A stretch of 63,205 nt of DNA, the filler included, from Reclinomonas americana ATCC 50394 (Eukaryota): assembly GCA_048213135.1 (NCBI GenBank). It is 5 parts of 4 records of this genome, joined end to end, with 100 filler letters (N's around TTAATTAATTAA, not from the genome) between each part and the next. Parts side by side here need not be neighbours in the genome. Positions count along the whole stretch, not along the records: positions 1 to 13,505 come from PS015466.1; 4 more parts are not named here. One strand, 5' to 3'. Every line of letters begins with the position of its first letter. The first letter of the stretch is position 1. The position numbers and the translations under genes are program-made. Below are positions 5,323-61,851 of this stretch, piece after piece. A model generated the notes under the pieces. The model was not told the origin of the DNA. It did not search any database and saw only the letters and a list, made by a program, of their open reading frames with translations.

Positions 5323-6534
5323 TCACCGAGCGCCCATTCTGTGGAACACGAGCTGGTGATCGGTCTCTTGCGGACCGGGCTTTAGCGACACCATGACGGG
5401 CCGGTTGCGCAGCGACGAGCGCAGCATGACCAGATCGCTGTTGGCGATCTGCGTGCCGTCTCCCTCATGCTCCACTGCCGCAGCGTCGCTGTCGGCTGCA
5501 TTCTCTGCATTATTCGTCGACGTCGTCGTCGTTGTTGTCGATGCAGTCGTCTTTTCCGGTTCAATGCTGGTGTAGTAGCCGGCAATGCTCACCAGCTCCG
5601 GATTGAAGGCAGCCGCGTAGATGCGGCAGTTCAGATTGCCGCGCAGACTACGACACACACACGCACACGCACACACGCACACACACAGGTATGAGGGAAC
5701 TGACACGGAGTGGCAACGGCAGCGATTCGACGTACCCTGCGTGCGCCTGGCCCTCCAGCACGCCGTACACGTGAATGTCGCCGTCGGCCCGCACTTCGCC
5801 GTACGCATGCACGTGGCCAATGACCACCAGGCTGCGGTCCTTGGCGTACACCTCCTGCCCGCCACGCACCGGCTGCGACCACACCAGCGCCTCCAACGGT
5901 GCAGCTTGCACCTGTGCCGGTGGTGGAGGCGGAGGCTGAGGCGTGGCGGGCTGAGAGGACAGCGCTGCAGCTGGCTGATCGCTGCCACTGACAACAACCA
6001 CCGACTGACTGTTTTCGCGCACGAGTGGCAACCGTGCGGCCTGCGCAATCGCCTTGCTGTAGCGCGATGCCTGCGTGACTCCCACCGGCAGCATCTCGCA
6101 CTCCCCACGCAGTGTGTCGGCAATGTGGCGCACAAAGTCGGCTACCTCCTCGCTACTGCTGCTCATCTCTGCAGTGCCGGCCGGTGTCGTGGCATCTGCA
6201 TCGCTCGGTGGTGTGGCCGGTGGTCGATAGTCTCTGTTGACATGCATGTGAGTCAGAGAGGGAGAGAGGACAGGGGAGAAGGGTGTGTGTGTGCACGCAA
6301 CAGGACGACGGGGGAGCCTCGATAGAAGGCAGCAGTGGCACGAATCTGCGTGTGCGAGTGAGAAGTGATGAGCATGCATCATGCAGTCAGCCTGTGAGAG
6401 ACCTTGTCGAGTGCACTGAGGCCATCCTCCCGCGAACTGATGCGCAGTGTGGGCACGAGGAAGGACTTGTTGACGAGCGCCAGCTTGTGATTGCTGCTGA
6501 AGAGAGCGCGACTGACGAGTGCTCTGAGAATCAT
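5323..6534 (-). CDS. minC: Septum site-determining protein MinC homologue with predicted mitochondrial presequence
   Basis: Exons 6534-6403, 6345-6302, 6233-5736, 5647-5323. Product MILRALVSRALFSS...IRATAAFYRGSPVVLD...PVRGGQEVYAKDRSLVVIGHVHAYGEVRADGDIHVYGVLEGQAHAGLRGNLNCRIYAAAFNPELVSIAGYY, matching the MinC C-terminal beta-helix (VRSGQ, ADGxIHVYG, ELVSIAG). Confidence 0.9.
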
Positions 6535-6571
6535 GTTGAGTCGCGAACTGGGACGGAGGACAAGACTTCTT

Positions 6572-8966
<2,395 letters not shown>

Positions 8967-13458: not shown

Positions 13459-13549
13459 GTTGCGTCTTCCTGTGTCGTCGTCGTCGTCGTCGCTGATCAG
13501 CGTCGNNNNNNNNNNNNNNNNNNNNNNNNNNNNNNNNNNNNNNNNNNNN

Positions 13550-13561
13550 TTAATTAATTAA
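13550..13561. other. Artificial scaffold linker TTAATTAATTAA (stops in all six frames)
   Basis: Identical 12-mer embedded in Ns, also at 30939, 57152 and 61796. Confidence 0.9.
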
Positions 13562-13606
13562 NNNNNNNNNNNNNNNNNNNNNNNNNNNNNNNNNNNNNNN
13601 NNNNNA

Positions 13607-28957: not shown

Positions 28958-32754
<3,797 letters not shown>

Positions 32755-33031: not shown

Positions 33032-36000
33032 TCACAGCACGTGGCCCGGTCCGTAGGGTCCGTCGTCAAAGGCATACGGCGACGACTCGACATCGGCTCC
33101 TACTGTGAGGGCGTCAATGCAGTGCGCGAGGGGACAGAGGATGCAGAAGGAGAGAAACGAAACTGTATCCGGCGCCATTGCTGCTGCCACCAGCACTCAG
33201 CGCACTGGCCGATGGTGAGCGTGCGGGAGCGGCCGTGATGCGTTTTGAGTCGGCCGTTGGAAGTTGGCCGAACAACTTGATGTCGAGGATCTGGCGCAGT
33301 CGCGTGAGCACCAAGAGCGCACTCAGCCACTGGAGAGAGAGACATGCTGCGCGACCACAAACCTGGAAGCCAGAAACGTCGGAGCCAGGCGACTCGAACT
33401 CGCAGCGCAGCACGCGGCACGCAGTGTGACGAGCGCTCTTGCTGAGTGCGACTTTTTGCTGAGCGCTGGCATCGATCAGACGACCCTGTCCAAACGCCGC
33501 ATACAGACGCTCGCTGCATGACGGAAAAGAGGTGAGCACACACTGGAAACCTAGGATTCTATGAGTTTAAGAAAGCAATGACGCAACGGCGTGTCGGTAG
33601 ACGGCGCCGCAAAGAGGCTGTACGCAGTAGGACCGCGGCCGTCGCCCGGCGTGGTCACCAGCAAATGGTCGAGCACCACATCGCAGGCAAAGGTGAACAC
33701 CACCGAGGTGTTCTCCACGCGGCACGCGGCGAGCCACTCTGGTCGAATCGGCGCAGTCTCCGGTTCAGCACCTGCCAGGAGGAAGAGGAGGGGGATGATG
33801 AGCAAAAACACGGAGGAACAGTAAGCATGCGCATTCGAATGCCACGCAACTCGCATGAGACGCAGAGGCAGCGACGCTCTTCTTGGTCGGCAGCGTCAGC
33901 GGTGCCGAGCCCTTCGGGTAGAATTGCGCGGCGACCTTGTGACGAATGGCACGACGCTGCTCCTCGGGGGTGGGCGGCGCACGGATGCCGCGTTGCGGCC
34001 GCACGCTAATGTCGGGGTCGCGGTAAATGGCCGAGCTTGACGCCAGCGGTGCACCCGAGGCCGCTGCGTGATAGATGCACATGAGGGTGGAAGGAACGCA
34101 GAGAGAATGTCGAAAAAAGGTGTCAGTACACAAACCGGCTTGGAAGCGCTGCTTGGCTGGCGACACTTGCTGGCCGCGTTGCGGGCTGGAAGTGCCGTTG
34201 CTGCTGCCACCGCGTGGCGTTCGGGACCGAGAAGGGCTACCACTGTCGGGCGCCACTCGTGCGGGCGGTGGTGGCGAGCCCTGGCCGCCCAGCGGATCGA
34301 CAACGGTGCCACGCACGACACCCTCTGTGTGTCGGTAGAAATGCGGTGAGCTAGCAACATAAGTGAGGACGACAGGGGGCTCAGACAGACCTTGCGGACC
34401 GGCACCTCGCTGCGGCGAGCTCATGCGGCCGACACTCGTCTTGGTCATGCGCACGGCGGCACGCGACGGCGACAACCGTGACAGGACACCGCTCACTGTG
34501 AGGAGAGTAGGCATGAGTGGTGCGGCAACTGTTAAGCAGAGTGACAGGGGGGTTGTTGACGCACCACCACCCTCGCGGAGTACACGGTGCACTTCCACCA
34601 CTCGCGACGGGAATCGAATGCGCGGGAAGGCAGCTGCACGGATCAGCGTCACCGTGGGATTCGGCGGCAACAGTACAGGTCCCGTGTCTACGGAAAAAAA
34701 GAAGGAGATGCATCAGCAACTTGGCAAGAATTCTCCTCCCTTGCTGGCAAGACGCAACAGAGTTTTGAGTCGACCGTGGGCACACTGCCGTCGAGCGTGA
34801 ATCGGATCTCGAAATCACGCGACACCTTGGCGTCGCCCTCCAGCACCAGAAGGTTGTCCTTTTCCACGTACGTGAGAATCGGCGTCTCGATCACTGCGAC
34901 CGCGTCAGGTAAGGCACACGAGAAGACAGAGAAGAGTGCACGGCGACGGCGGCGGCGGCATCGCAACTGTCGGGCGGCGAAAAGTCGGCAATCTCGCTGC
35001 GGAACATGCCGCGTCCGCACGACATGATGCGAATCACCTGCGGCAGGCGACCAGTGACAAAACCACCCATGTGCGGGCCGTATTCGTCGAGGAACAGTCC
35101 GTTCATGTCGTACTGCGGGCTCCTGCGAGTTGCACATGGTTTCAGCGGTCACCAGGGGGAAGCACGTGGGCGAGTGGAATGATGCGCAACTGCATGGTGG
35201 GCTTGGAGCCGTCCAGCGTGTAGAAAATGTCGCACTCCTGTCCGGGGAGAACGGTGACGAAAAAGGCCTTGGCCAGCGGATCAAAGTGGCCAGAGGGTGT
35301 CGGCGTCTCTGTGTTGAGCGAGTTGAGTCAGTGGGACAAGAGAAAGAGGAGACACTCCCGTGTGCGCACACACACACCTTGCGGAACGTCAAACGCGACG
35401 ATTTCCGAAGCGTACTTGCAACGCGCCAGAGCCACCACCTTGATGACTTGCGGGTACGGCTTGCGCAGCTTGATGGGTCCCGTGTAGCGCGGTGAGACAC
35501 GCGTCGGCTCCTTGCCGTCAATCGTGTACAGGTAGACCACATCGGGCGACACTTGCGACAGTGTGAATGTGCGCGCGTACACGTCAAAGTGTCCCTCTGG
35601 CGGCTTCGTGGTCAAGTACTTGCGCAGCACCGAGTCCTCGTGCTGGAACTCCGCCTCGTACTCCTCGTGCATCATCTGGTGTGGCATGGCACATGAGATG
35701 CGCAAGAGAAAACAAGTGCGTGTGGCCAGACATGACACTCAATCGCAACTGCAGTGTTGGCCTCGCGGGCGTGATGAATGGCCAGCACGGCCTGGCGGAA
35801 GACCTCGGTCACGTGCTTGAGGTTGTTGGAGAAGATCTCAATGTACTTGAGAATGCCGGCCGACTGCGCAAACGAGATGGCGTCGTACGAGGAGACAGTG
35901 TCGGGCGACTGCGACGCCTCGCTGCGGGTCTCGGCATGAGCGCCAATCAGAATCACCGGCACACTCCGGCGCTGCGCGAGTGGAAAGGCCGGTGAGCATC

Positions 36001-36913
36001 GACAACAAGGGAGGGAGGGAGGGAGAGGGAGGAAGGGGAAAGGCGAACCGGAGCCAGGTCGCGGAACTCGCGAATCTCCTTCAAGTAGCGCGCCTTGGCG
36101 GCCTCAAACGAGCGCGGATCACGCAGCGAGAAGACGAGCAGGAAAATGTCGGTGGCCGGGTAATACATGGGCCGCACATCGTCGAAGTCTGCCGTGCACT
36201 CCGGCAGCCACATCTCCAGCGTGCACTGCGAGTGATCCGAGGTGGGCCCGCTCGCCGCATCCTCACCACGATGCGCGTCCTCGTTCGGATCAAACACGCG
36301 ATGCACAATGTCGCACGGCGGCAGCGACAGCTGATCCAGCAGGTTGGGGAAGCGCTGCACGAGTTCCGGCAGCACAAACAGCTGCATCAGCTCCAGCTTG
36401 CCAGAGTGCTCTGCGTGAGGGAGGGGTGAGTGAGAAGGAACAGACTTGGAGAGAGAGGTTTGCATTGCTCACCATCGCCGAGAATGGTGACCTTGAAGAG
36501 CGGGCCACTGCCACCCTGCGGCTCCACCAGCACAGCCGAGTCGTTGAGTGTTGAGTGCTGTGTACGTGATGATGATGAGTGGCATGAGGGCCCTGCAGAG
36601 TGATTGTGCGGTCTCTTTCTCTCTCACACACGCACCAGCTCCACCGACAAACGACGCCGGCGATCGTAGAGGAACTCAATGTCGTCGTCGGTCAAGTCGG
36701 CCAGCTCTGCGTACCGATGCTCCTCAATGTACCCTCGCAGCTCCTCCTCACTCATGTCTGCAGCAGCAGCAGAGTGAGCGAAACACACAATGAGAGAGTG
36801 AGTTGCACACAATTCAGACATGCGTGTGTTCGCGCGCGCGCTCTCTCTGTGTGTGCGTGGTGTACGCAACATGGCAGTGAGGGGACGTCGGAGGTGGACG
36901 AAGGGGCGGCCAT
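33032..36913 (-). CDS. Multidomain protein: degenerate Rho-like GTPase + three Fn3-associated (chitobiase C-terminal-like) repeats + disordered linker + discoidin/galactose-binding-like C-terminus
   Basis: KVTILGDEHSGKL, VRPMYYPATDIFLLVFS..DPRSF, VPVILIG, EVFRQAV; three YT(I/L)DG/FTLDG-x-x-PT motifs; C-terminal beta-strand pattern VVFTF..VVLDHLLV...GPTAYSL...ILDIKLFG. Confidence 0.72.
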
Positions 36914-38063
36914 GGCGTTTTGTGTGTGTGTGGAAAATCTCCGCAGGCGACGAGCAAGCGAAATGCACGATGCGATATCGAATGTGTGAGAAAGAGAGAG
37001 AGAGCGGTGGAGGGTGAGGCTGCGGAAAAGGCGAGCGATGTGCCTTGTGCGCGTGCGACTCTGCGTGTGTGTTTGGTGCACTGGGTCCGCGGAGGTTGGT
37101 TGGTTGAGTGGGACAGTGAATGTGATATCGATATCGGCCGCGAGACGGGCAACCGGGACCAGAGATTCGCGGTGTTAGGCTATGAGTGCGCTTCGTGTTG
37201 ATGAGCATACAGGAGGAGAGGGACGCATTGCAACATAAAGCAAGAGGAAAAGCCGAATTCGGAAATTTCCATTTTCGCAGCGATTGCGACGATATCGCTC
37301 CCCGCGCATCCGACGGCTGGAGCATGCAGCAACAGCAAGCCTTTTTCTTATTCAAACAGCAACATAGCTGCACCATGATGAACCTTGTGGAGGCACCAGA
37401 AACTGAGACGCCACGATTCCTTTCTCTCAGTGTTCACGTGATGTCTGAGTTTCTGGTGCTCACTCAAGATGGTGATCATCATGCAGCTGCTGCTGTTTGG
37501 ATTAGTAAAGTTGTTGTTGTTGTTGTTGTTGTTGTTGTCGGATCCGGATCCGGATCCGAAATTTCTGATGCGCATGCTGGCGTTTTGCAAGAGTAACCAC
37601 GCACGTTGGTGCACGAGTCACACAGATTCGACGCTGTCTCTCGCACCTGAACGCAAAATGCAGCGAAAAGGGAAGGGCATGTGGTGCGTCGACTTCAATT
37701 TCGCACCAATGCATGATCATGTGCGCTCACTCACCCACTCACCCACGCGCACACTCTCGGCCCCCCTCCACCACCTCCCTGGCCTACTCATGACACCGAA
37801 AAGCGAGTCGATACACCAGCCATTTCGAACGAACACATGCATGCAAAAACAAAACGAATTCTTCCGCATTCGTTGAATCTCCCTCCTTCACGAATGACAA
37901 GCATGGCCACTGCCACGACCACAGCCCACCCCCCACCCCTCCACAAAAACACTGTGCGAGTATTGAATATTGACTTCAAAATCGCTGCATGGCGTCGCGA
38001 GCGTCGGTTGCATTCAGGTGCTGTCCAGATCCGGATCCGATCTTTGCGCACACCAACAAAATC

Positions 38064-41000
38064 ATGTCTCGCCCGCACGCCATGGCGGCACACGCCGCTC
38101 TCTTCCTCATCATGTGCGTGGCGACGCTCTCTCTGCTCGCCTCCACGCCCACCGCACACGCACAAGGCACAACGCCTCCCTACGACTACGCGCGCGCCCT
38201 GCAACTCTCCTTCTTCTTCTATCGCGCACAACGCGCCAAGGGCTCCACCGCCAACATCAACTGGCGCGCCGACTGCTACCCCAACGACGGCAACAATGGC
38301 AGCCTCGCGGGGGGCTGGTTTGATGCCGGTGATCAAGTCAAGGTGCGTGTGTGTACAATGTTCTCGCACTCTCTCTCTGTGTGTGTCTCACACACAACGC
38401 ATCTTTTGGTTAGTTCCACTTGCCGCTCGGTTACTCGGCGTCCATGTTGGCATTCAGTGGACTGGAGTTCGGCGCCGGCTACACGGCCACCGGACTGCAC
38501 TCGGCGCTGCAAGCCGAACTGCAATACATCACCTCGTACATTATTGCGGCGTGGGAGGTGTGTTGTTGCCTTTTTGCGCTGCTGCTCTGTAGTTCTGCGA
38601 ATACCGACCGACGTACGTGCAGCCGTCTGTGCCGCGCTTGGCTGGTCAAGTGGGCGACGGCAATGTCGATCACTCATACGTTGCGTGATAGGCATCTTGT
38701 CTTGTTGTGTTGTTGCTCACTGTCTCATGCGCGTCACAGTGGATGGCGTGCGAGGTCCTCACCACGTTTTACACCACCACGCCGCGCCCCACGTACTGGC
38801 TGGTGCGTTCTGTGCTCGTTGCCGGCGCATTCTGTAGCGGAAATTGACACCTGCTGAGCGCAGACACCCACGTGCCCGGGCACGGAGGTGGCCATGGAGT
38901 TTGCCGCTGCACTCGCCGCCTCGGCGCTTTACTTTACTCAGTACGGTATGTGTGTGTGTGTCTCTCTATCTGTGTTGTGCACTCTTCCCTTTGGCCTCAT
39001 TTCGTTGTCGTAGGCGGCGCCACGTCGACGTACATTTCACAACTGCGCACGGTGGCCGCGCAGCTGTACGACTTTGGCTTCAACTACAAGGGCGCGTACT
39101 CGAACTGCATCACCAACGCTGCCGCGTTCTACAACAGCTGGAGCGGCTACCAAGATGAGATCGCCTGGGCCAGTGCCTGGATGTACAAGCTCACTGGCGA
39201 CTCGGCGTACCTGAGCAAGGCGACTGCGGCGTATGGTGTCTCGGACCCTGGTCTCGGCGTCATCTCATGGTACGCAGTCGTCGTCAATGAGCTCACCCCC
39301 TCTCCCTCCATCGTGGCTCACCTTCTGCGTGTCTCCCTCCACCAGGGACAATGTCTCGCAAGGCGCAGGTACTTTCTCCTCCGTCCTCCCTCTCACCCTC
39401 CCACCCCTCTCCCTCACCCATCCTCCCCTTCACCAGCGCTGCTGTTGTTCGACGCCGCCGTGGCCACGGGCAACACGTCGCTTCGCGACACAGTAGTCTC
39501 GCGTCTCAACAACGACATGAACCGCCTGAGCACGTGCTCGGTGGGCATGGGTTGCACGCCCGACGGCCTGATTGTGGTCGACCAGTGGGGCTCGCTTCGC
39601 TACGCCGCCAACGGTGCCGTGATTGCCGAGGCCTGGGCCAAGCGCTGGCCGTCCACAGCCTCCACCGCGCTCGGTGTCTCCTCGTCGCAGATCAACTACA
39701 TCCTCGGCAAGAACAGCGCCGCTCGCTCGTACGTCATTGGCTTCGGCTCAAACTTCCCGCGCAATCCGCACCACCGCACTGGCCACGGCCCGTGGGCGAA
39801 CCAGGCCGGTTGCTGCCCGACTGTCAACGTGCACACCCTGTACGGTGCCCTGGTCGGCGGTCCCTCGTCCACCAACCCAGCGTCCTATGTTGTTGCGTTT
39901 CTGAAAGAGCGAGGAGTGTTAAGGTAAGTTTTTTTGTCGCTGATAAGTGTGTGTGCTTGCAGGATGATCGCACCAACTACGTCACCAACGAAGTGGCAGT
40001 CGACTACAACGCTGGACTCACTGGTGCGCTGGCGGCGCTGAGCGCTCGCTTTGCCGTCTCACCACCGCCGACCATCGCCACCGAGGCCGTGCAAACCGAG
40101 TTTGCGGCGGCGGTGACAGTGCAGCAACAGCAGGCCGGCTCGTTCACCGAATTCAAGATTGTCATTAGCCAGACTACCGCCTGGCCCGCTCGTCGCTTCC
40201 CGCTCGCCTACCGGTGCGCCACCACTCACGTGTGAACTCACCACTGTCGCCACACACTTACCGTGCATTTTGTCGCACAGCTACTTCCTCGACTTGAGCG
40301 ATGTGGCCTCGATGAACCTGGGCGGCACCCCCGCCTCGCACGTGACTGTGAGCACTTCGTACAATCAGGGCAGCGCCACTGTCTCGCCCCTGCAGCTGTG
40401 GTCCGGCAATATTTGTTGCGTTGCTGCGCGTGGGCACGCACGACATGCGCTCTTGCTGCTGACACGACGTTCTTCACCACAGACTTTATCGAGGTGTCCT
40501 ATTCGGCTGCCAACGCACCGTATCCAGGTGGCCAGGGCGTGTACCAGGTGCGACCATCTCCAAACTCTCACCCCTCTCTCTGTTTGTGCTGAAGCAACAC
40601 CTGCGCGCAGGCCGAGGCTCAAATTCGCTTCACCCTCTCCGGCAACGTCACCAACAGCAAGTGGGACCGCACCAAGGATTGGTTTGTCGTGCTGCACTTA
40701 CGATTCCTTGTTTTCTCTCAGGCACACAGCTCACATCACCACTCCAGGTCGTACGCCGGAGGCTCGCATGTGGTCATTTACAACTCGGCACTCGGCCAAA
40801 TCGCCTTTGGCACACAGCCCGACGGCAGCGGTGTGCCACCGCCGACTCCGCTGACATGCCCGAACAACTGCAGCAGCAACGGCACTTGCGACACCACCAC
40901 CGGTCTGTGCACCTGCACCAGCGGCTACACCGGCCTGGACTGCTCTGGTTTGCACGTTGCTCCTTCACGATTACCTCGCTCCTCCTTCTCTCATGATCAC

Positions 41001-44000
41001 GCCTCGTGCACTCGCAGTTGCCCCGCCCAATCCGATTCCCTGCCCGAGCAACTGCAGCGGCCACGGCATGTGCGATACGACTCGCGGCGTGTGCGCCTGC
41101 ACTGGTGGCTACACCGGCACCGACTGCAGCGGTGTGTTTTCTTGTCGCCGTCAGCCATCAACGAATATCTGTCTCACAACCGCCTTTCCACTCAGTGGCC
41201 CCGATTCCGTGCCCGAATAACTGCTCAAGCCACGGCAACTGCGACACGACTCGTGGCGTGTGCACATGCACTGGCGGTTACACTGCCACCGACTGCAGCG
41301 GTTCGCAGCATTGCGTCGCCACACGTGAGCTGTGTTCAGTACCCAACTCATTTTCTGCATTGCGCAGTGGCACCTCCGTTGCCGGCCGACTGTGTCGTAT
41401 TCAACGTCAACGTGTGGGGCGGCGGCAACGGCATGACCATCAATGCGACGGCTCCGACCGCCAAGCTGGTGACTCGTGTGTGTGGAGTCTCTGCAGTTGA
41501 AGGAGTGCTTCGACCAACTGTATATTGTTGTTGTGTGTGTAGGGCTCCGTGATTTCATGGACATGGTCTGGCTCGGTTACGATCAGCAGCACCGACATCT
41601 GGAACGCGACATTGATCAACAGCACGTCCGTGAAGACCATGTACGACAACATGGGCAACTTTGGCTTCAACGCCATTTACGTGCGTCATTCCGCCTGTCA
41701 CTGCGATCCTATTGAACAAAATTGCATTCTGACCATCGTGCTCAGACCGGAACCACTGCGCCGACTGCCTCCAACTTCAAGATCGATGGCGTGTCGTGCG
41801 GTGGTTGCGTATTCATTCTCTTTCTCATTCTTTCCGTCTCTCGCACTCTAGCTGACCTGTCGTGTGCTTCACAGCCTCGATGCCCACCTGCCCCACGTGC
41901 GCGAACGGCGGCTCATGCGACACGGCGACAGGCAAGTGCTCATGCACGAATGGCTTCGATCCGGCCACCAACTGCACCTCCTGCTTGGCCGGACGCTTCG
42001 GCGCCACCTGCAGTGGCACGTGCCCCACCTGCGCCAACGGCGGCAAGTGAGTCGTGTTCTGAATACGTATATACGAAACGTAATCGCTCACGCGCCTCCT
42101 TGCACACCTCGCCTGCAGGTGCACTGATGGCTTGTCGGGCAACGGCACATGCTCGTGCCCCATTGGCTTCAACACCGCCGACAATTGCGCGTCGTGCTTG
42201 CCGGGTCGTTATGGGGCCACCTGCAGTGGCGTCTGCGCGTGCCAGAACGGCGCCAGGTTTGTCGGTTGTGATTTGCCGTCCGTGCATACCAACGTCTTAT
42301 ATCATCGAATGCAGCTGCAACGAGGGTATCACCGGCAACGGATCGTGCACTTGCACCACTGGTTTCTACGGCTCCACGTGCTCGGGACAGTGCTCACAAT
42401 GGTGTGTGACGACAGTGAGTGTGCATGGAGTTCACCGATTGTGACATTCGTCGTGCATTATCAGCCCTGCGAACACTGCGTGCACCTCTGGTGCCAATGG
42501 CGGATGCGTGTGTGCCGCCGGCTTCGCGTCTCCCACTTGCACTAACTGCATTGCTGGCCGCTACGGTCCCACGTGCAGCGGCGTGTGCCCGACTTGCGCC
42601 AACGGTGGCACGTTGCGTCATGATGACCTTACTGCTCTTGTTGGCTTTCAACCTCTGACACGCATTCTTCGTGCAGGTGCCAGAGTGGCACGACCGGTGA
42701 CGGCAAGTGCGCGTGCCCGGCTGGCTTTGACCCGGCGACCAACTGCGCCTCGTGCTTGGCCGGCCGCTACGGCTCGACGTGCAGCGGTACCTGCAACTGC
42801 GTAAATGGCGGAACGTGCGTTGTTCACAGCTTGTTGCGAGTGCTTGCATTTCTCCCGGATTACTGACTGCCTGCTGCAGATGCAATTCTGGCCTGACTGG
42901 CAACGGAACTTGCACATGCCCCACTGGCTTCTACGGTGCCACATGCTCCGGCCTCTGCTCGCAGTGGTGTGTATCGCAGTGCTTTTCTGTTACGTGCGAC
43001 TGTGCTTACCACTGTGCCTTGCAGCCCCGCCAACTCGACCTGCACCTCTGGTGCCACTGGCGGCTGCGTGTGTGCTGCTGGTTTCGCGTCTCCCACTTGC
43101 ACCACCTGCATTGCCGGCCGCTACGGCCCCACATGCACTGGCGTGTGCCCGACCTGCGCCAATGGTGGCACGTTGCGTCGTGATGACCTTACTGCTCTTG
43201 TTGGTCTTCCATATCTGACCCGCATTCTTCGTGCAGGTGCCAGAGTGGCACGACCGGCAGTGGCAAGTGCACGTGTCCTGCTGGCTTTGACCCGGCGACC
43301 AACTGCGCATCGTGCTTGGCCGGCCGCTACGGTTCGACGTGCAGCGGTACCTGCAACTGCGTGAATGGCGGAACGTGCGTTTCTAGCATGCAAACTGGCG
43401 ACCGTGTCACTCTGCATGTTCTCACCGTTTTCGCCACAGCTGCTCATCTGGTCTGACGGGTACTGGTGCATGCACTTGCCCCAACGGCTACTACGGTGCC
43501 ACGTGCTCTGGCCTCTGCTCGCAATGGTGAGTCACAGCAACTCGAGAATGTTGCGTCCACAGAGGCTCATTGCTTGTTGTCATCGGCAGTCCCTCGGGAA
43601 CCACGTGCCAGTCTGGTGCCACTGGAGGCTGCACGAGTTTCGTGTGATGTTGGGGAGCATATGTGTGTGTGGCAAAGATCGTGACGCACTCACTCCACGT
43701 TTTGTACAGCTTCTGGAGGCGCCACCTGTGCCGATGTCACGTGGGCACCTACCTCAACATGGCCTGGTGGACAGACGGTGACGGTGACGATCAAGACCGG
43801 CAAAGTGGTGCGTTTGACGGCGCATGCCCATGTAGGTTTATGTGCATCGCAGCTGAACGATGCATGCGTAGGGAACCAAACTGGGCTGGACATGGAGCTC
43901 TGCTGTCACGTCGCTGCAGACGTGGAGCGTTACCGAGCTGGTGAACGCGACGACCATGAAGACGAAGCCATCGTGAGTTTTTTCCACGTCACCTCTCACC

Positions 44001-57151: not shown

Positions 57152-57163
57152 TTAATTAATTAA
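57152..57163. other. Artificial scaffold linker TTAATTAATTAA
   Basis: Same 12-mer within Ns. Confidence 0.9.
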
Positions 57164-57261
57164 NNNNNNNNNNNNNNNNNNNNNNNNNNNNNNNNNNNNN
57201 NNNNNNNCCCCATGCCCGTCACGTGGCGTGTGCTCACCTCCCCCTCTTTTCCCGTGTGCAG

Positions 57262-61751: not shown

Positions 61752-61795
61752 NNNNNNNNNNNNNNNNNNNNNNNNNNNNNNNNNNNNNNNNNNNN

Positions 61796-61807
61796 TTAAT
61801 TAATTAA
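61796..61807. other. Artificial scaffold linker TTAATTAATTAA
   Basis: Same 12-mer within Ns. Confidence 0.9.
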
Positions 61808-61851
61808 NNNNNNNNNNNNNNNNNNNNNNNNNNNNNNNNNNNNNNNNNNNN

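What the first reader, a model, noticed from the sequence alone, without database searches (positions are those of the whole stretch)
5323..6534. Nuclear-encoded MinC with a mitochondrial-type presequence
Seen: four-exon gene with MinC N-terminal (FYRGSPVVLD) and C-terminal motifs and an Arg/Ser/Leu-rich N-terminus lacking acidic residues. Known: MinC inhibits FtsZ polymerisation in bacteria; mitochondrial FtsZ/MinCDE is retained patchily in some protists and lost in animals, fungi and land-plant mitochondria. Inference: this organism keeps a bacterial-type mitochondrial division system. The conserved RSGQ is RGGQ here and there are low-complexity insertions.
Basis: partly seen in the sequence, partly recalled or inferred. 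Interest (0 to 1): 0.72.

Follow-up and report, generated by a model that had tools for sequence, protein, structure and literature searches.

The report
Mitochondrial-type MinC gene in a protist
This is a real, intron-split nuclear gene for MinC, a bacterial cell-division inhibitor that several protists, including jakobid flagellates, are already known to keep for dividing their mitochondria, so the call is right but the system is not new.

Summary
Confirmed: a four-exon minus-strand gene (6534-5323, three GT-AG introns) gives a 332-aa MinC with both domains (Pfam MinC_C above its cut-off; fold matches E. coli MinC). In the two mixture-model trees it falls with MinC of named non-bacterial sources (Thecamonas, Achlya, Chrysoparadoxa, Mallomonas) at 99/95 and 97/95, although AU tests do not reject a bacterial sister. 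Its N-terminal strand matches Andalucia godoyi mitochondrial MinC by eye. Corrections: the leader is only about 18 residues, since the rest of the acid-free stretch is the MinC domain, and it is not measurably amphipathic. RGG is not odd: P. aeruginosa MinC has it. The real deviations are E. coli R172 to Q and G154 to Y. MinD, FtsZ, transcripts and a cyanobacterial MinC could not be checked here. Jakobid MinCDE-FtsZ is published. New member of a known kind.

The parts
6403..6534 (-). minC exon 1 (codons 1-44): leader plus first strands and helix of the MinC N-domain
   Evidence: alignment to E. coli MinC puts F13 at residue 25 and D34-K35 at the exon end
6481..6534 (-). about 18-residue leader, 3 basic and 0 acidic residues; putative mitochondrial presequence
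   Evidence: amphipathicity not above shuffles; import not tested
6346..6402 (-). intron 1, 57 nt, GT-AG, holds an in-frame stop so it must be removed
6302..6345 (-). exon 2: the FYRGSPVVL part of the N-domain (E. coli F42 equivalent = F51)
6234..6301 (-). intron 2, 68 nt, starts with the GTTGCGT donor that is common in this window
   Evidence: 45 seen against 14.4 expected; also the donor of a CCT4 intron
5736..6233 (-). exon 3: rest of the N-domain, linker, first half of the C-terminal beta-helix
   Evidence: Pfam MinC_C E 1.1e-15; model and Foldseek match to 5xdm and 6riq
6152..6229 (-). Pro/Ala/Ser/Thr-rich insertion in the N-domain (residues 61-86)
   Evidence: pLDDT under 50 in part
5897..6013 (-). 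Pro/Gln/Ala-rich interdomain linker (residues 133-171)
5855..5866 (-). RGGQ, the MinD-binding motif (E. coli R133-S134-G135-Q136)
5747..5755 (-). E219-G220-Q221, where E. coli has R170-G171-R172: loss of the basic pair
5648..5735 (-). intron 3, 88 nt, GT-AG, TG-repeat rich
5323..5647 (-). exon 4: second half of the beta-helix, Thr-rich insertion, terminal strands, stop
   Evidence: Pfam MinC_C positions 51-85; E-INS-i alignment places the last 30 or so residues on the terminal strands
5428..5556 (-). Thr/Ala-rich insertion of about 40 residues (256-298); an in-frame GT..AG of 84 nt (5521-5438) lies in it and may or may not be an intron
6572..8966 (-). upstream neighbour: intron-rich GH1 beta-glucosidase-like gene with a signal-peptide-like start; its stop is 37 nt from the minC ATG

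Best explanation
The gene encodes the MinC subunit of the bacterial-type division system that the mitochondrion inherited from its proteobacterial ancestor and that moved to the nucleus early. Shown here: an intact, spliced two-domain MinC in eukaryotic DNA that groups with other eukaryotic MinC. Inferred: the short basic leader (perhaps with the acid-free first strand) takes it into the mitochondrial matrix; it dimerises through the C-terminal beta-helix, is recruited to the inner membrane by ATP-bound MinD through RGGQ, is displaced by MinE, and its N-domain blocks FtsZ assembly away from the division site, as in bacteria. The host is probably a jakobid (earlier notes name Reclinomonas americana; only partly checked).
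For: Pfam MinC_C over cut-off. Profiles of 203 bacterial-type and 38 eukaryote-type relatives score the spliced protein 161.5 and 167.0 bits and cover both domains. Exon-3 model matches E. coli MinC-C (5xdm, E 3.9e-4, rmsd 0.5 A over 49 columns). Trees: query inside a branch with all eukaryote-type rows at SH 97 (143 rows), 99/95 (50 rows), 97/95 (43 rows, with one unnamed long row); named members are Thecamonas trahens (cluster of P0152), Achlya hypogyna, Chrysoparadoxa australica, Mallomonas annulata. The three best BLAST hits of the N-domain among 377 sequences are eukaryote-type. Proline at E. coli S16: query, 31 of 42 eukaryote-type rows, 13 of 296 others. By eye the N-terminal strand and the FYRGSPVVLD segment match Andalucia godoyi MinC AKB90671.1. 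R133, G135, Q136, E156, G161, G171 and F42 equivalents are kept. Neighbours are eukaryotic genes (GH1, DGAT, MDH, CCT-delta) and share the GTTGCGT donor. MinCDE and FtsZ1/2 are reported for Andalucia and Stygiella.
Against: AU tests (LG+G4, 230 columns) do not reject the query as sister to P. aeruginosa (p 0.135) or to a Rhodanobacteraceae row (p 0.425). With Firmicute/Fusobacterial outgroups the root fell inside the eukaryote-type rows and the query sat next to the unnamed P0035/P0051 and the proteobacteria at SH 84. The C-domain alone hits bacterial and eukaryotic rows equally. The leader shows no amphipathicity above shuffles. R172 is Q and G154 is Y, both nearly invariant elsewhere. The query does not group with the Andalucia-like P0266, though that grouping is not rejected (p 0.49). 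MinD and FtsZ are not shown for this genome.
Confidence: 0.84

Rival explanations
1. Same origin and location, but this MinC has weakened or lost its FtsZ-inhibiting role and is kept mainly as a MinD partner that tunes MinD/MinE cycling, or it has co-evolved with an altered FtsZ tail.
For: R or K at E. coli 172 in 41 of 42 eukaryote-type rows (1 gap) and 294 of 296 others, but Q here; G154 in 39 of 42 and 294 of 296, but Y here; R170 is E. K9 and G10, needed for FtsZ inhibition in E. coli (passages), are V and N. The MinD contact R133 is kept. MinC alters Min oscillation on its own account in E. coli. No FtsZ note exists for this genome.
Against: Loss of K9/G10 is common to eukaryote-type MinC (K or R is not among the six commonest states, which cover 31 of 42 rows) and is seen by eye in Andalucia, which has FtsZ1 and FtsZ2. 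A basic residue stands two places on (K23 = position 11), as in 4 of 4 alphaproteobacterial rows. Two bacterial-type rows also lack R/K at 172, and Aquifex and Thermotoga MinC have V and N there. The link of R172 to FtsZ targeting is recalled; the passage I saw ties R172A only to weak DicB binding. Q differs from R by one base, so an assembly error is not excluded. Missing scan notes are no evidence of absence.
Confidence: 0.1
2. A separate lateral transfer from a proteobacterium (such as the source of the unnamed P0035/P0051) replaced or added to the ancestral gene and later gained introns.
For: P0035 and P0051 share RGGQ and EGxAHAG with the query; P0051 pairs with it at 89/68 in one tree; AU tests do not reject bacterial sisters.
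Against: Both are long branches; P0035/P0051 sit deep among bacterial rows, away from the query. They lack the N-terminal LxPTL strand that the query shares with eukaryotic MinC. Identity to any relative is at most 38% over the aligned columns.
Confidence: 0.04
3. Plastid-targeted MinC of cyanobacterial origin.
For: One Atlas look-alike cluster at 0.86 is mostly cyanobacterial (under 0.9, a lead only). GxAHAG resembles non-proteobacterial MinC.
Against: TIGR01222 scores 65 bits on exon 3 against 30 or less for all PRK00513-type models (that some of these are cyanobacterial is recalled). The extra residue after YA and the ELVSIAG motif are of the proteobacterial kind. Close relatives come from plastid-less Thecamonas and Achlya. 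The five Firmicute/Fusobacterial rows are cut off at SH 100.
Confidence: 0.01
4. Bacterial contaminant, pseudogene or chance reading frame.
For: No transcript evidence; two of the three donors are not of the usual GTRAGT kind.
Against: Three introns restore one frame across conserved motifs, third-position GC is 0.72, there are no stops or shifts in the exons, and the intron style matches the neighbouring CCT-delta gene.
Confidence: 0.01

Closest known systems
Andalucia godoyi mitochondrial MinC, AKB90671.1, 221 aa (Gray et al. 2020, PMC7050145, supplementary file 1; system described by Leger et al. 2015, which I could not read)
   Same: By eye: same first strand (LxPTLR) and same F.RGSP.V.D segment; two-domain layout; nuclear gene; K9/G10 not kept.
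   Different: Andalucia has no intron, no leader before the first strand (targeting score 52), RSGQ and GRAIAG; the window's protein has three introns, an 18-aa leader, RGGQ, EGQAHAG and about 110 more residues in low-complexity insertions.
Other eukaryotic MinC: Thecamonas trahens KNC54903.1 (cluster of P0152), Achlya hypogyna OQR83782.1, Chrysoparadoxa australica CAM9445997.1, Mallomonas annulata EukProt EP01041 protein
   Same: Same supported branch; proline at position 16; basic N-terminal leader.
   Different: At most 38% identity; stramenopile-like rows have leaders of 26-108 residues; all keep R or K at position 172.
Proteobacterial MinC (E. coli, PDB 5xdm; P. aeruginosa, PDB 6riq; TIGR01222)
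   Same: Beta-helix fold, RxG motif (RGG in P. aeruginosa), E156, G161, G171, ELVSIAG, F42.
   Different: No introns or leader, K9-G10 kept, R170/R172 kept, encoded in a minCDE operon.

Membership tests
MinC protein family | C-terminal beta-helix (Pfam PF03775) above the curated cut-off | tested here: met
   57.9 bits against 33.2 on exon 3 alone; fold match to 5xdm and 6riq
MinC protein family | N-terminal domain (Pfam PF05209 kind) | tested here: met
   No Pfam MinC_N hit on single exons, but residues 15-125 score E 3.8e-6 and 7e-7 on own bacterial and eukaryote-type profiles and align with E. coli F13, D34, K35, F42
MinC protein family | TIGR01222 whole-protein cut-off (95.25 bits) | tested here: inconclusive
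   Only single exons could be scanned: 65 bits (exon 3) and 16.7 bits (exon 4)
MinC protein family | RSGQ-type MinD-binding motif | tested here: met
   RGGQ; R, G and Q kept; G variant in 13 of 338 other rows including P. aeruginosa
MinC protein family | Basic residue at E. coli 172 and glycine at 154 | tested here: not met
   Q221 and Y203. Not family-defining across bacteria (Aquifex and Thermotoga differ at 172) but near-invariant in the proteobacterial and eukaryotic rows sampled
MinC protein family | Binds MinD and inhibits FtsZ assembly | not testable with these tools
   needs biochemistry
Mitochondrial FtsZ/MinCDE system of protists | Nuclear, spliceosomal-intron gene in eukaryotic DNA | tested here: met
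Mitochondrial FtsZ/MinCDE system of protists | Groups with eukaryotic mitochondrial-type MinC | tested here: met
   97, 99/95 and 97/95; weaker; AU tests not decisive; only 5 of the eukaryote-type rows have a named eukaryotic source
Mitochondrial FtsZ/MinCDE system of protists | Mitochondrial targeting | tested here: inconclusive
   18-aa basic, acid-free leader; hydrophobic moment not above shuffles; no TargetP or MitoFates here
Mitochondrial FtsZ/MinCDE system of protists | minD, minE and ftsZ in the same genome | not testable with these tools
   No genome held; none among the 222 window ORFs of 120 aa or more scanned; MinE reported by an unchecked note
Plastid or cyanobacterial MinC | Groups with cyanobacterial MinC | tested here: inconclusive
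   No cyanobacterial sequence could be fetched; indirect evidence is against

The most novel reading that the evidence does not exclude
In this lineage the mitochondrial MinC keeps its MinD contact but has lost the basic surface (R170, R172) and other residues that bacterial MinC uses against FtsZ, so it works as a tuner of MinD/MinE cycling, or against a changed or absent FtsZ: an intermediate step in the decay of the ancestral division system inside an otherwise very bacteria-like mitochondrion.
Probability: 0.1. Interest if true: 0.55.

Novelty: new member of a known kind. Interest (0 to 1): 0.2.

Why it matters
It adds one more lineage point, probably a second aerobic jakobid, to the patchy map of the ancestral mitochondrial division system. 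That system is already described for Andalucia, Stygiella and other protists, so the general message is known. The one open point is functional: I saw no test of what mitochondrial MinC does, and this copy carries natural changes at positions that are near-invariant elsewhere, which makes it a useful variant for asking whether organellar MinC still inhibits FtsZ.

Tried and rejected
Own-genome searches for FtsZ and MinE: no genome held. RNA runs: no RNA holder was listed, so no read check of splicing or of the Q221 codon. Word search among longer proteins: 0 of 2155 candidates. Metagenome scan: 2 loci from 529 stretches, at 52% and 40% identity, no close relative seen. Andalucia or other jakobid MinC was not among the 120 listed of 213 hits of the eukaryote-type profile, as far as names show, so it is not in my trees. 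Cyanobacterial MinC: two pattern scans of viral contigs gave 0 hits and 1 unrelated hit, plasmid and phage searches gave none. Origin of P0051: not found in viral contigs; Atlas places it among bacterial MinC clusters. First IQ-TREE run on 143 rows did not finish; the AU test with the two alphaproteobacterial rows was not finished. Rows dropped: 12 near-duplicate or odd rows plus the 5 outgroups; 7 more long rows. Leger et al. 2015 (PNAS) is not held, so I cannot say whether it lists this very gene; its supplements may. Nine paper searches showed no listing about a Reclinomonas MinC, judged from listings and the passages cited. Rejected: splice model B for intron 2 (lower score, loses the conserved Asp); RGGQ as a sign of decay; a 35-residue presequence. 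No complex prediction was run, because the C-domain is split between exons 3 and 4 and MinC-MinD is a textbook pair. Rfam and tRNA scans of the window were blank.

Full report
Observation. The minus strand from 6534 to 5323 carries an ATG and four exons (6534-6403, 6345-6302, 6233-5736, 5647-5323) separated by GT-AG introns of 57, 68 and 88 nt; they give a 332-residue protein with no internal stop. Intron 1 holds an in-frame stop, and its removal restores D-K-I where E. coli MinC has D34-K35-I36. For intron 2 I compared two models: the one that yields FYRGSPVVLD scores 161.5 against 156.5 bits on a profile of 203 bacterial-type MinC and 167.0 against 161.4 on a profile of 38 eukaryote-type MinC. 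Its donor, GTTGCGT, occurs 45 times in the window against 14.4 expected and also opens an intron in a conserved part of the CCT-delta gene, which ties the gene to the surrounding eukaryotic DNA. Third-position GC of the coding sequence is 0.72. No RNA holder was listed, so splicing rests on homology.

Identity. Exon 3 hits Pfam MinC_C at E 1.1e-15 (57.9 bits, cut-off 33.2) and exon 4 continues the model. An AlphaFold2 model of exon 3 (mean pLDDT 81.5) matches E. coli MinC-C (5xdm, E 3.9e-4, rmsd 0.5 A over 49 columns), with P. aeruginosa, Aquifex and Thermotoga MinC in the next five ranks. An unfiltered search of 1.84 billion representatives gave 1140 hits; I used the best 150. The N-domain is not found by Pfam on single exons but scores E 3.8e-6 and 7e-7 on my two profiles. 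Three low-complexity stretches (61-86, 133-171, 256-298) explain the extra length; the last 30 or so residues align with the terminal strands.

Origin. The neighbours are intron-rich eukaryotic genes: GH1 glucosidase, DGAT, malate dehydrogenase, alanyl-tRNA synthetase, CCT-delta. Among the relatives, a set with long basic leaders or a distinctive first strand forms a branch that holds the query: SH 97 in FastTree (26 of 143 rows), 99/95 in a mixture-model tree (query plus 22 of 50 rows) and 97/95 after re-alignment (query, 19 rows and the unnamed long row P0051, of 43; bootstrap not fully settled). Five rows of this set have a named eukaryotic source: Thecamonas trahens (cluster of P0152), Achlya hypogyna, Chrysoparadoxa australica, Mallomonas annulata and an MMETSP transcript; the other rows are labelled by the tree and by their leaders, which is partly circular. 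A proline at E. coli position 16 is in the query, in 31 of 42 eukaryote-type rows and in 13 of 296 others, and the three best hits of the N-domain among 377 sequences are eukaryote-type. Against this: with five Firmicute and Fusobacterial outgroups the root fell among the eukaryote-type rows and the query sat beside P0035/P0051 and the proteobacteria at SH 84; AU tests on 230 columns do not reject a P. aeruginosa sister (p 0.135) or a Rhodanobacteraceae sister (p 0.425); the bacterial sample is mostly Gammaproteobacteria; and no cyanobacterial or plastid MinC could be fetched. A plastid origin is still unlikely: PRK00513-type models score 30 bits or less against 65 for TIGR01222, and plastid-less Thecamonas and Achlya are in the same branch.

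Host. I could not place the host with my own data. Earlier scan notes on other pieces of this genome (AI notes, unchecked) identify GspE and GspDL genes as published Reclinomonas americana proteins, report a four-exon MinE gene, and describe the GTTGCGT donor class. I confirmed only the donor class in this window. By eye, the first strand and the FYRGSPVVLD segment closely match Andalucia godoyi MinC in supplementary file 1 of Gray et al. 2020. An unnamed Andalucia-like protein, P0266, does not group with the query, but the grouping costs only 0.34 log-likelihood units (p 0.49).

Targeting. The first 35 residues have no acidic residue, but the MinC first strand begins near residue 19, so the leader is about 18 residues with three basic and no acidic residues; 69% of shuffles reach its best hydrophobic moment. 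That is compatible with a short presequence and no more. Thecamonas-like rows have leaders of 11-12 residues, and Andalucia MinC has none and a targeting score of 52, so short or cryptic signals are normal in this group.

Mechanism. In bacteria the C-domain dimerises and binds MinD through RSGQ, MinE displaces it, the C-domain contacts the FtsZ tail and the N-domain the H10 helix (passages of PMC6803595, PMC6771821, PMC5548801 and PMC11938149). The query keeps R133, which is needed for MinD binding (passages of bioRxiv 10.64898/2026.10.05.756812), and G135, Q136, E156, G161, G171 and F42. So the most likely working is the standard one, inside the mitochondrial matrix; every step after the sequence is inferred.

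What is unusual. Position 172 is R or K in 41 of 42 eukaryote-type rows and 294 of 296 others but Q here; position 154 is G in 39 of 42 and 294 of 296 but Y here; position 170 is E. K9 and G10, which E. coli MinC needs against FtsZ (passages of PMC4215534 and PMC11938149), are V and N, but that loss is general in the eukaryote-type set. That R172 aims MinC at FtsZ is my recall; the passage I saw (PMC6832061) links R172A to weak DicB binding only. A one-base error at that codon cannot be excluded without reads. These changes allow, but do not show, a MinC with a weakened FtsZ role (about 10%).

Comparison with what is known. Gray et al. 2020 (passages) list FtsZ1, FtsZ2, MinC, MinD and MinE in Andalucia and call the system widespread; Leger et al. 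2016 (passages) report the same set in Stygiella; Horvathova et al. 2021 (passages) and a diplonemid proteome paper (passages) treat it as an established, patchy ancestral trait. Passages of PMC13650779 and PMC6871780 gave background only; PMC7203096 and PMC9161772 had nothing relevant. The source paper, Leger et al. 2015, is not held and is known to me only through these citations and recall; it or its supplement may already list this gene.

Verdict. Real gene, correctly named, new member of a known kind. Partners, import and activity are untested. Interest 0.2; the most novel reading has probability 0.1 and would deserve 0.55.

Noticed in passing
window 6535-6571 (minus): Only 37 nt separate the GH1 stop codon from the minC ATG on the same strand, so the minC promoter or 5' UTR must overlap the GH1 gene, or the two share a transcript. 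The spacer holds a pyrimidine-rich stretch ending in AG that looks like a splice acceptor.
   Followed up: partly
whole window; e.g. 6301 (minus) and 57417 (plus): GTTGCGT occurs 45 times against 14.4 expected and is the donor of minC intron 2 and of a 76-nt CCT-delta intron; earlier notes describe this shifted donor class for the genome.
   Followed up: partly
window 6402 (minus): Intron 1 of minC starts GTCTCT after AAG, a donor with almost no intronic consensus.
   Followed up: no
window 55725-57100: Degenerate tandem array with a period of about 183 bp (2.9 copies called at 56468-56998, more seen by eye), with embedded GT and GA microsatellites, just before a gap and the CCT-delta gene.
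   Followed up: partly
P0035, P0051 (unnamed proteins): Long-branch bacterial-type MinC that share RGGQ and EGxAHAG with the query; their source is unknown and the shared states may be convergent.
   Followed up: partly
eukaryote-type MinC set: Mitochondrial-type MinC mostly lack the E. coli K9-G10 pair and often carry a basic residue at position 11, as do 4 of 4 alphaproteobacterial rows (30 of 296 non-eukaryotic rows have R there).
   Followed up: partly
P0271 (Thecamonas trahens KNC54903.1): The deposited 514-aa model has a long unrelated front and lacks the first MinC strand that its 262-aa cluster mate P0152 has; the gene model is probably wrong at its 5' end.
   Followed up: no
window 35331-36468 (minus): Ras/Roc-like GTPase ORFs directly followed by a CHB_HEX_C_1/Fn3-associated domain ORF on the same strand; possibly one gene with an unusual domain pair.
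   Followed up: no
window 37974-44642 (plus): GH9 cellulase-like gene followed by teneurin-type EGF repeats; GH1 and GH9 enzymes in one window of a protist.
   Followed up: no
window 13506-13605, 30895-30994, 57108-57207, 61752-61851: Pairs of 44-N runs 12 bases apart; the one I read (57108-57207) holds a TTAATTAATTAA linker. These look like assembly joins, so the window may be made of separately joined pieces.
   Followed up: no
DQ115833.1 (hit H91): A 1.5-kb record deposited as cyanophage AS-1 matches a proteobacterial-type MinC at 61% identity; possibly a contaminated record.
   Followed up: no
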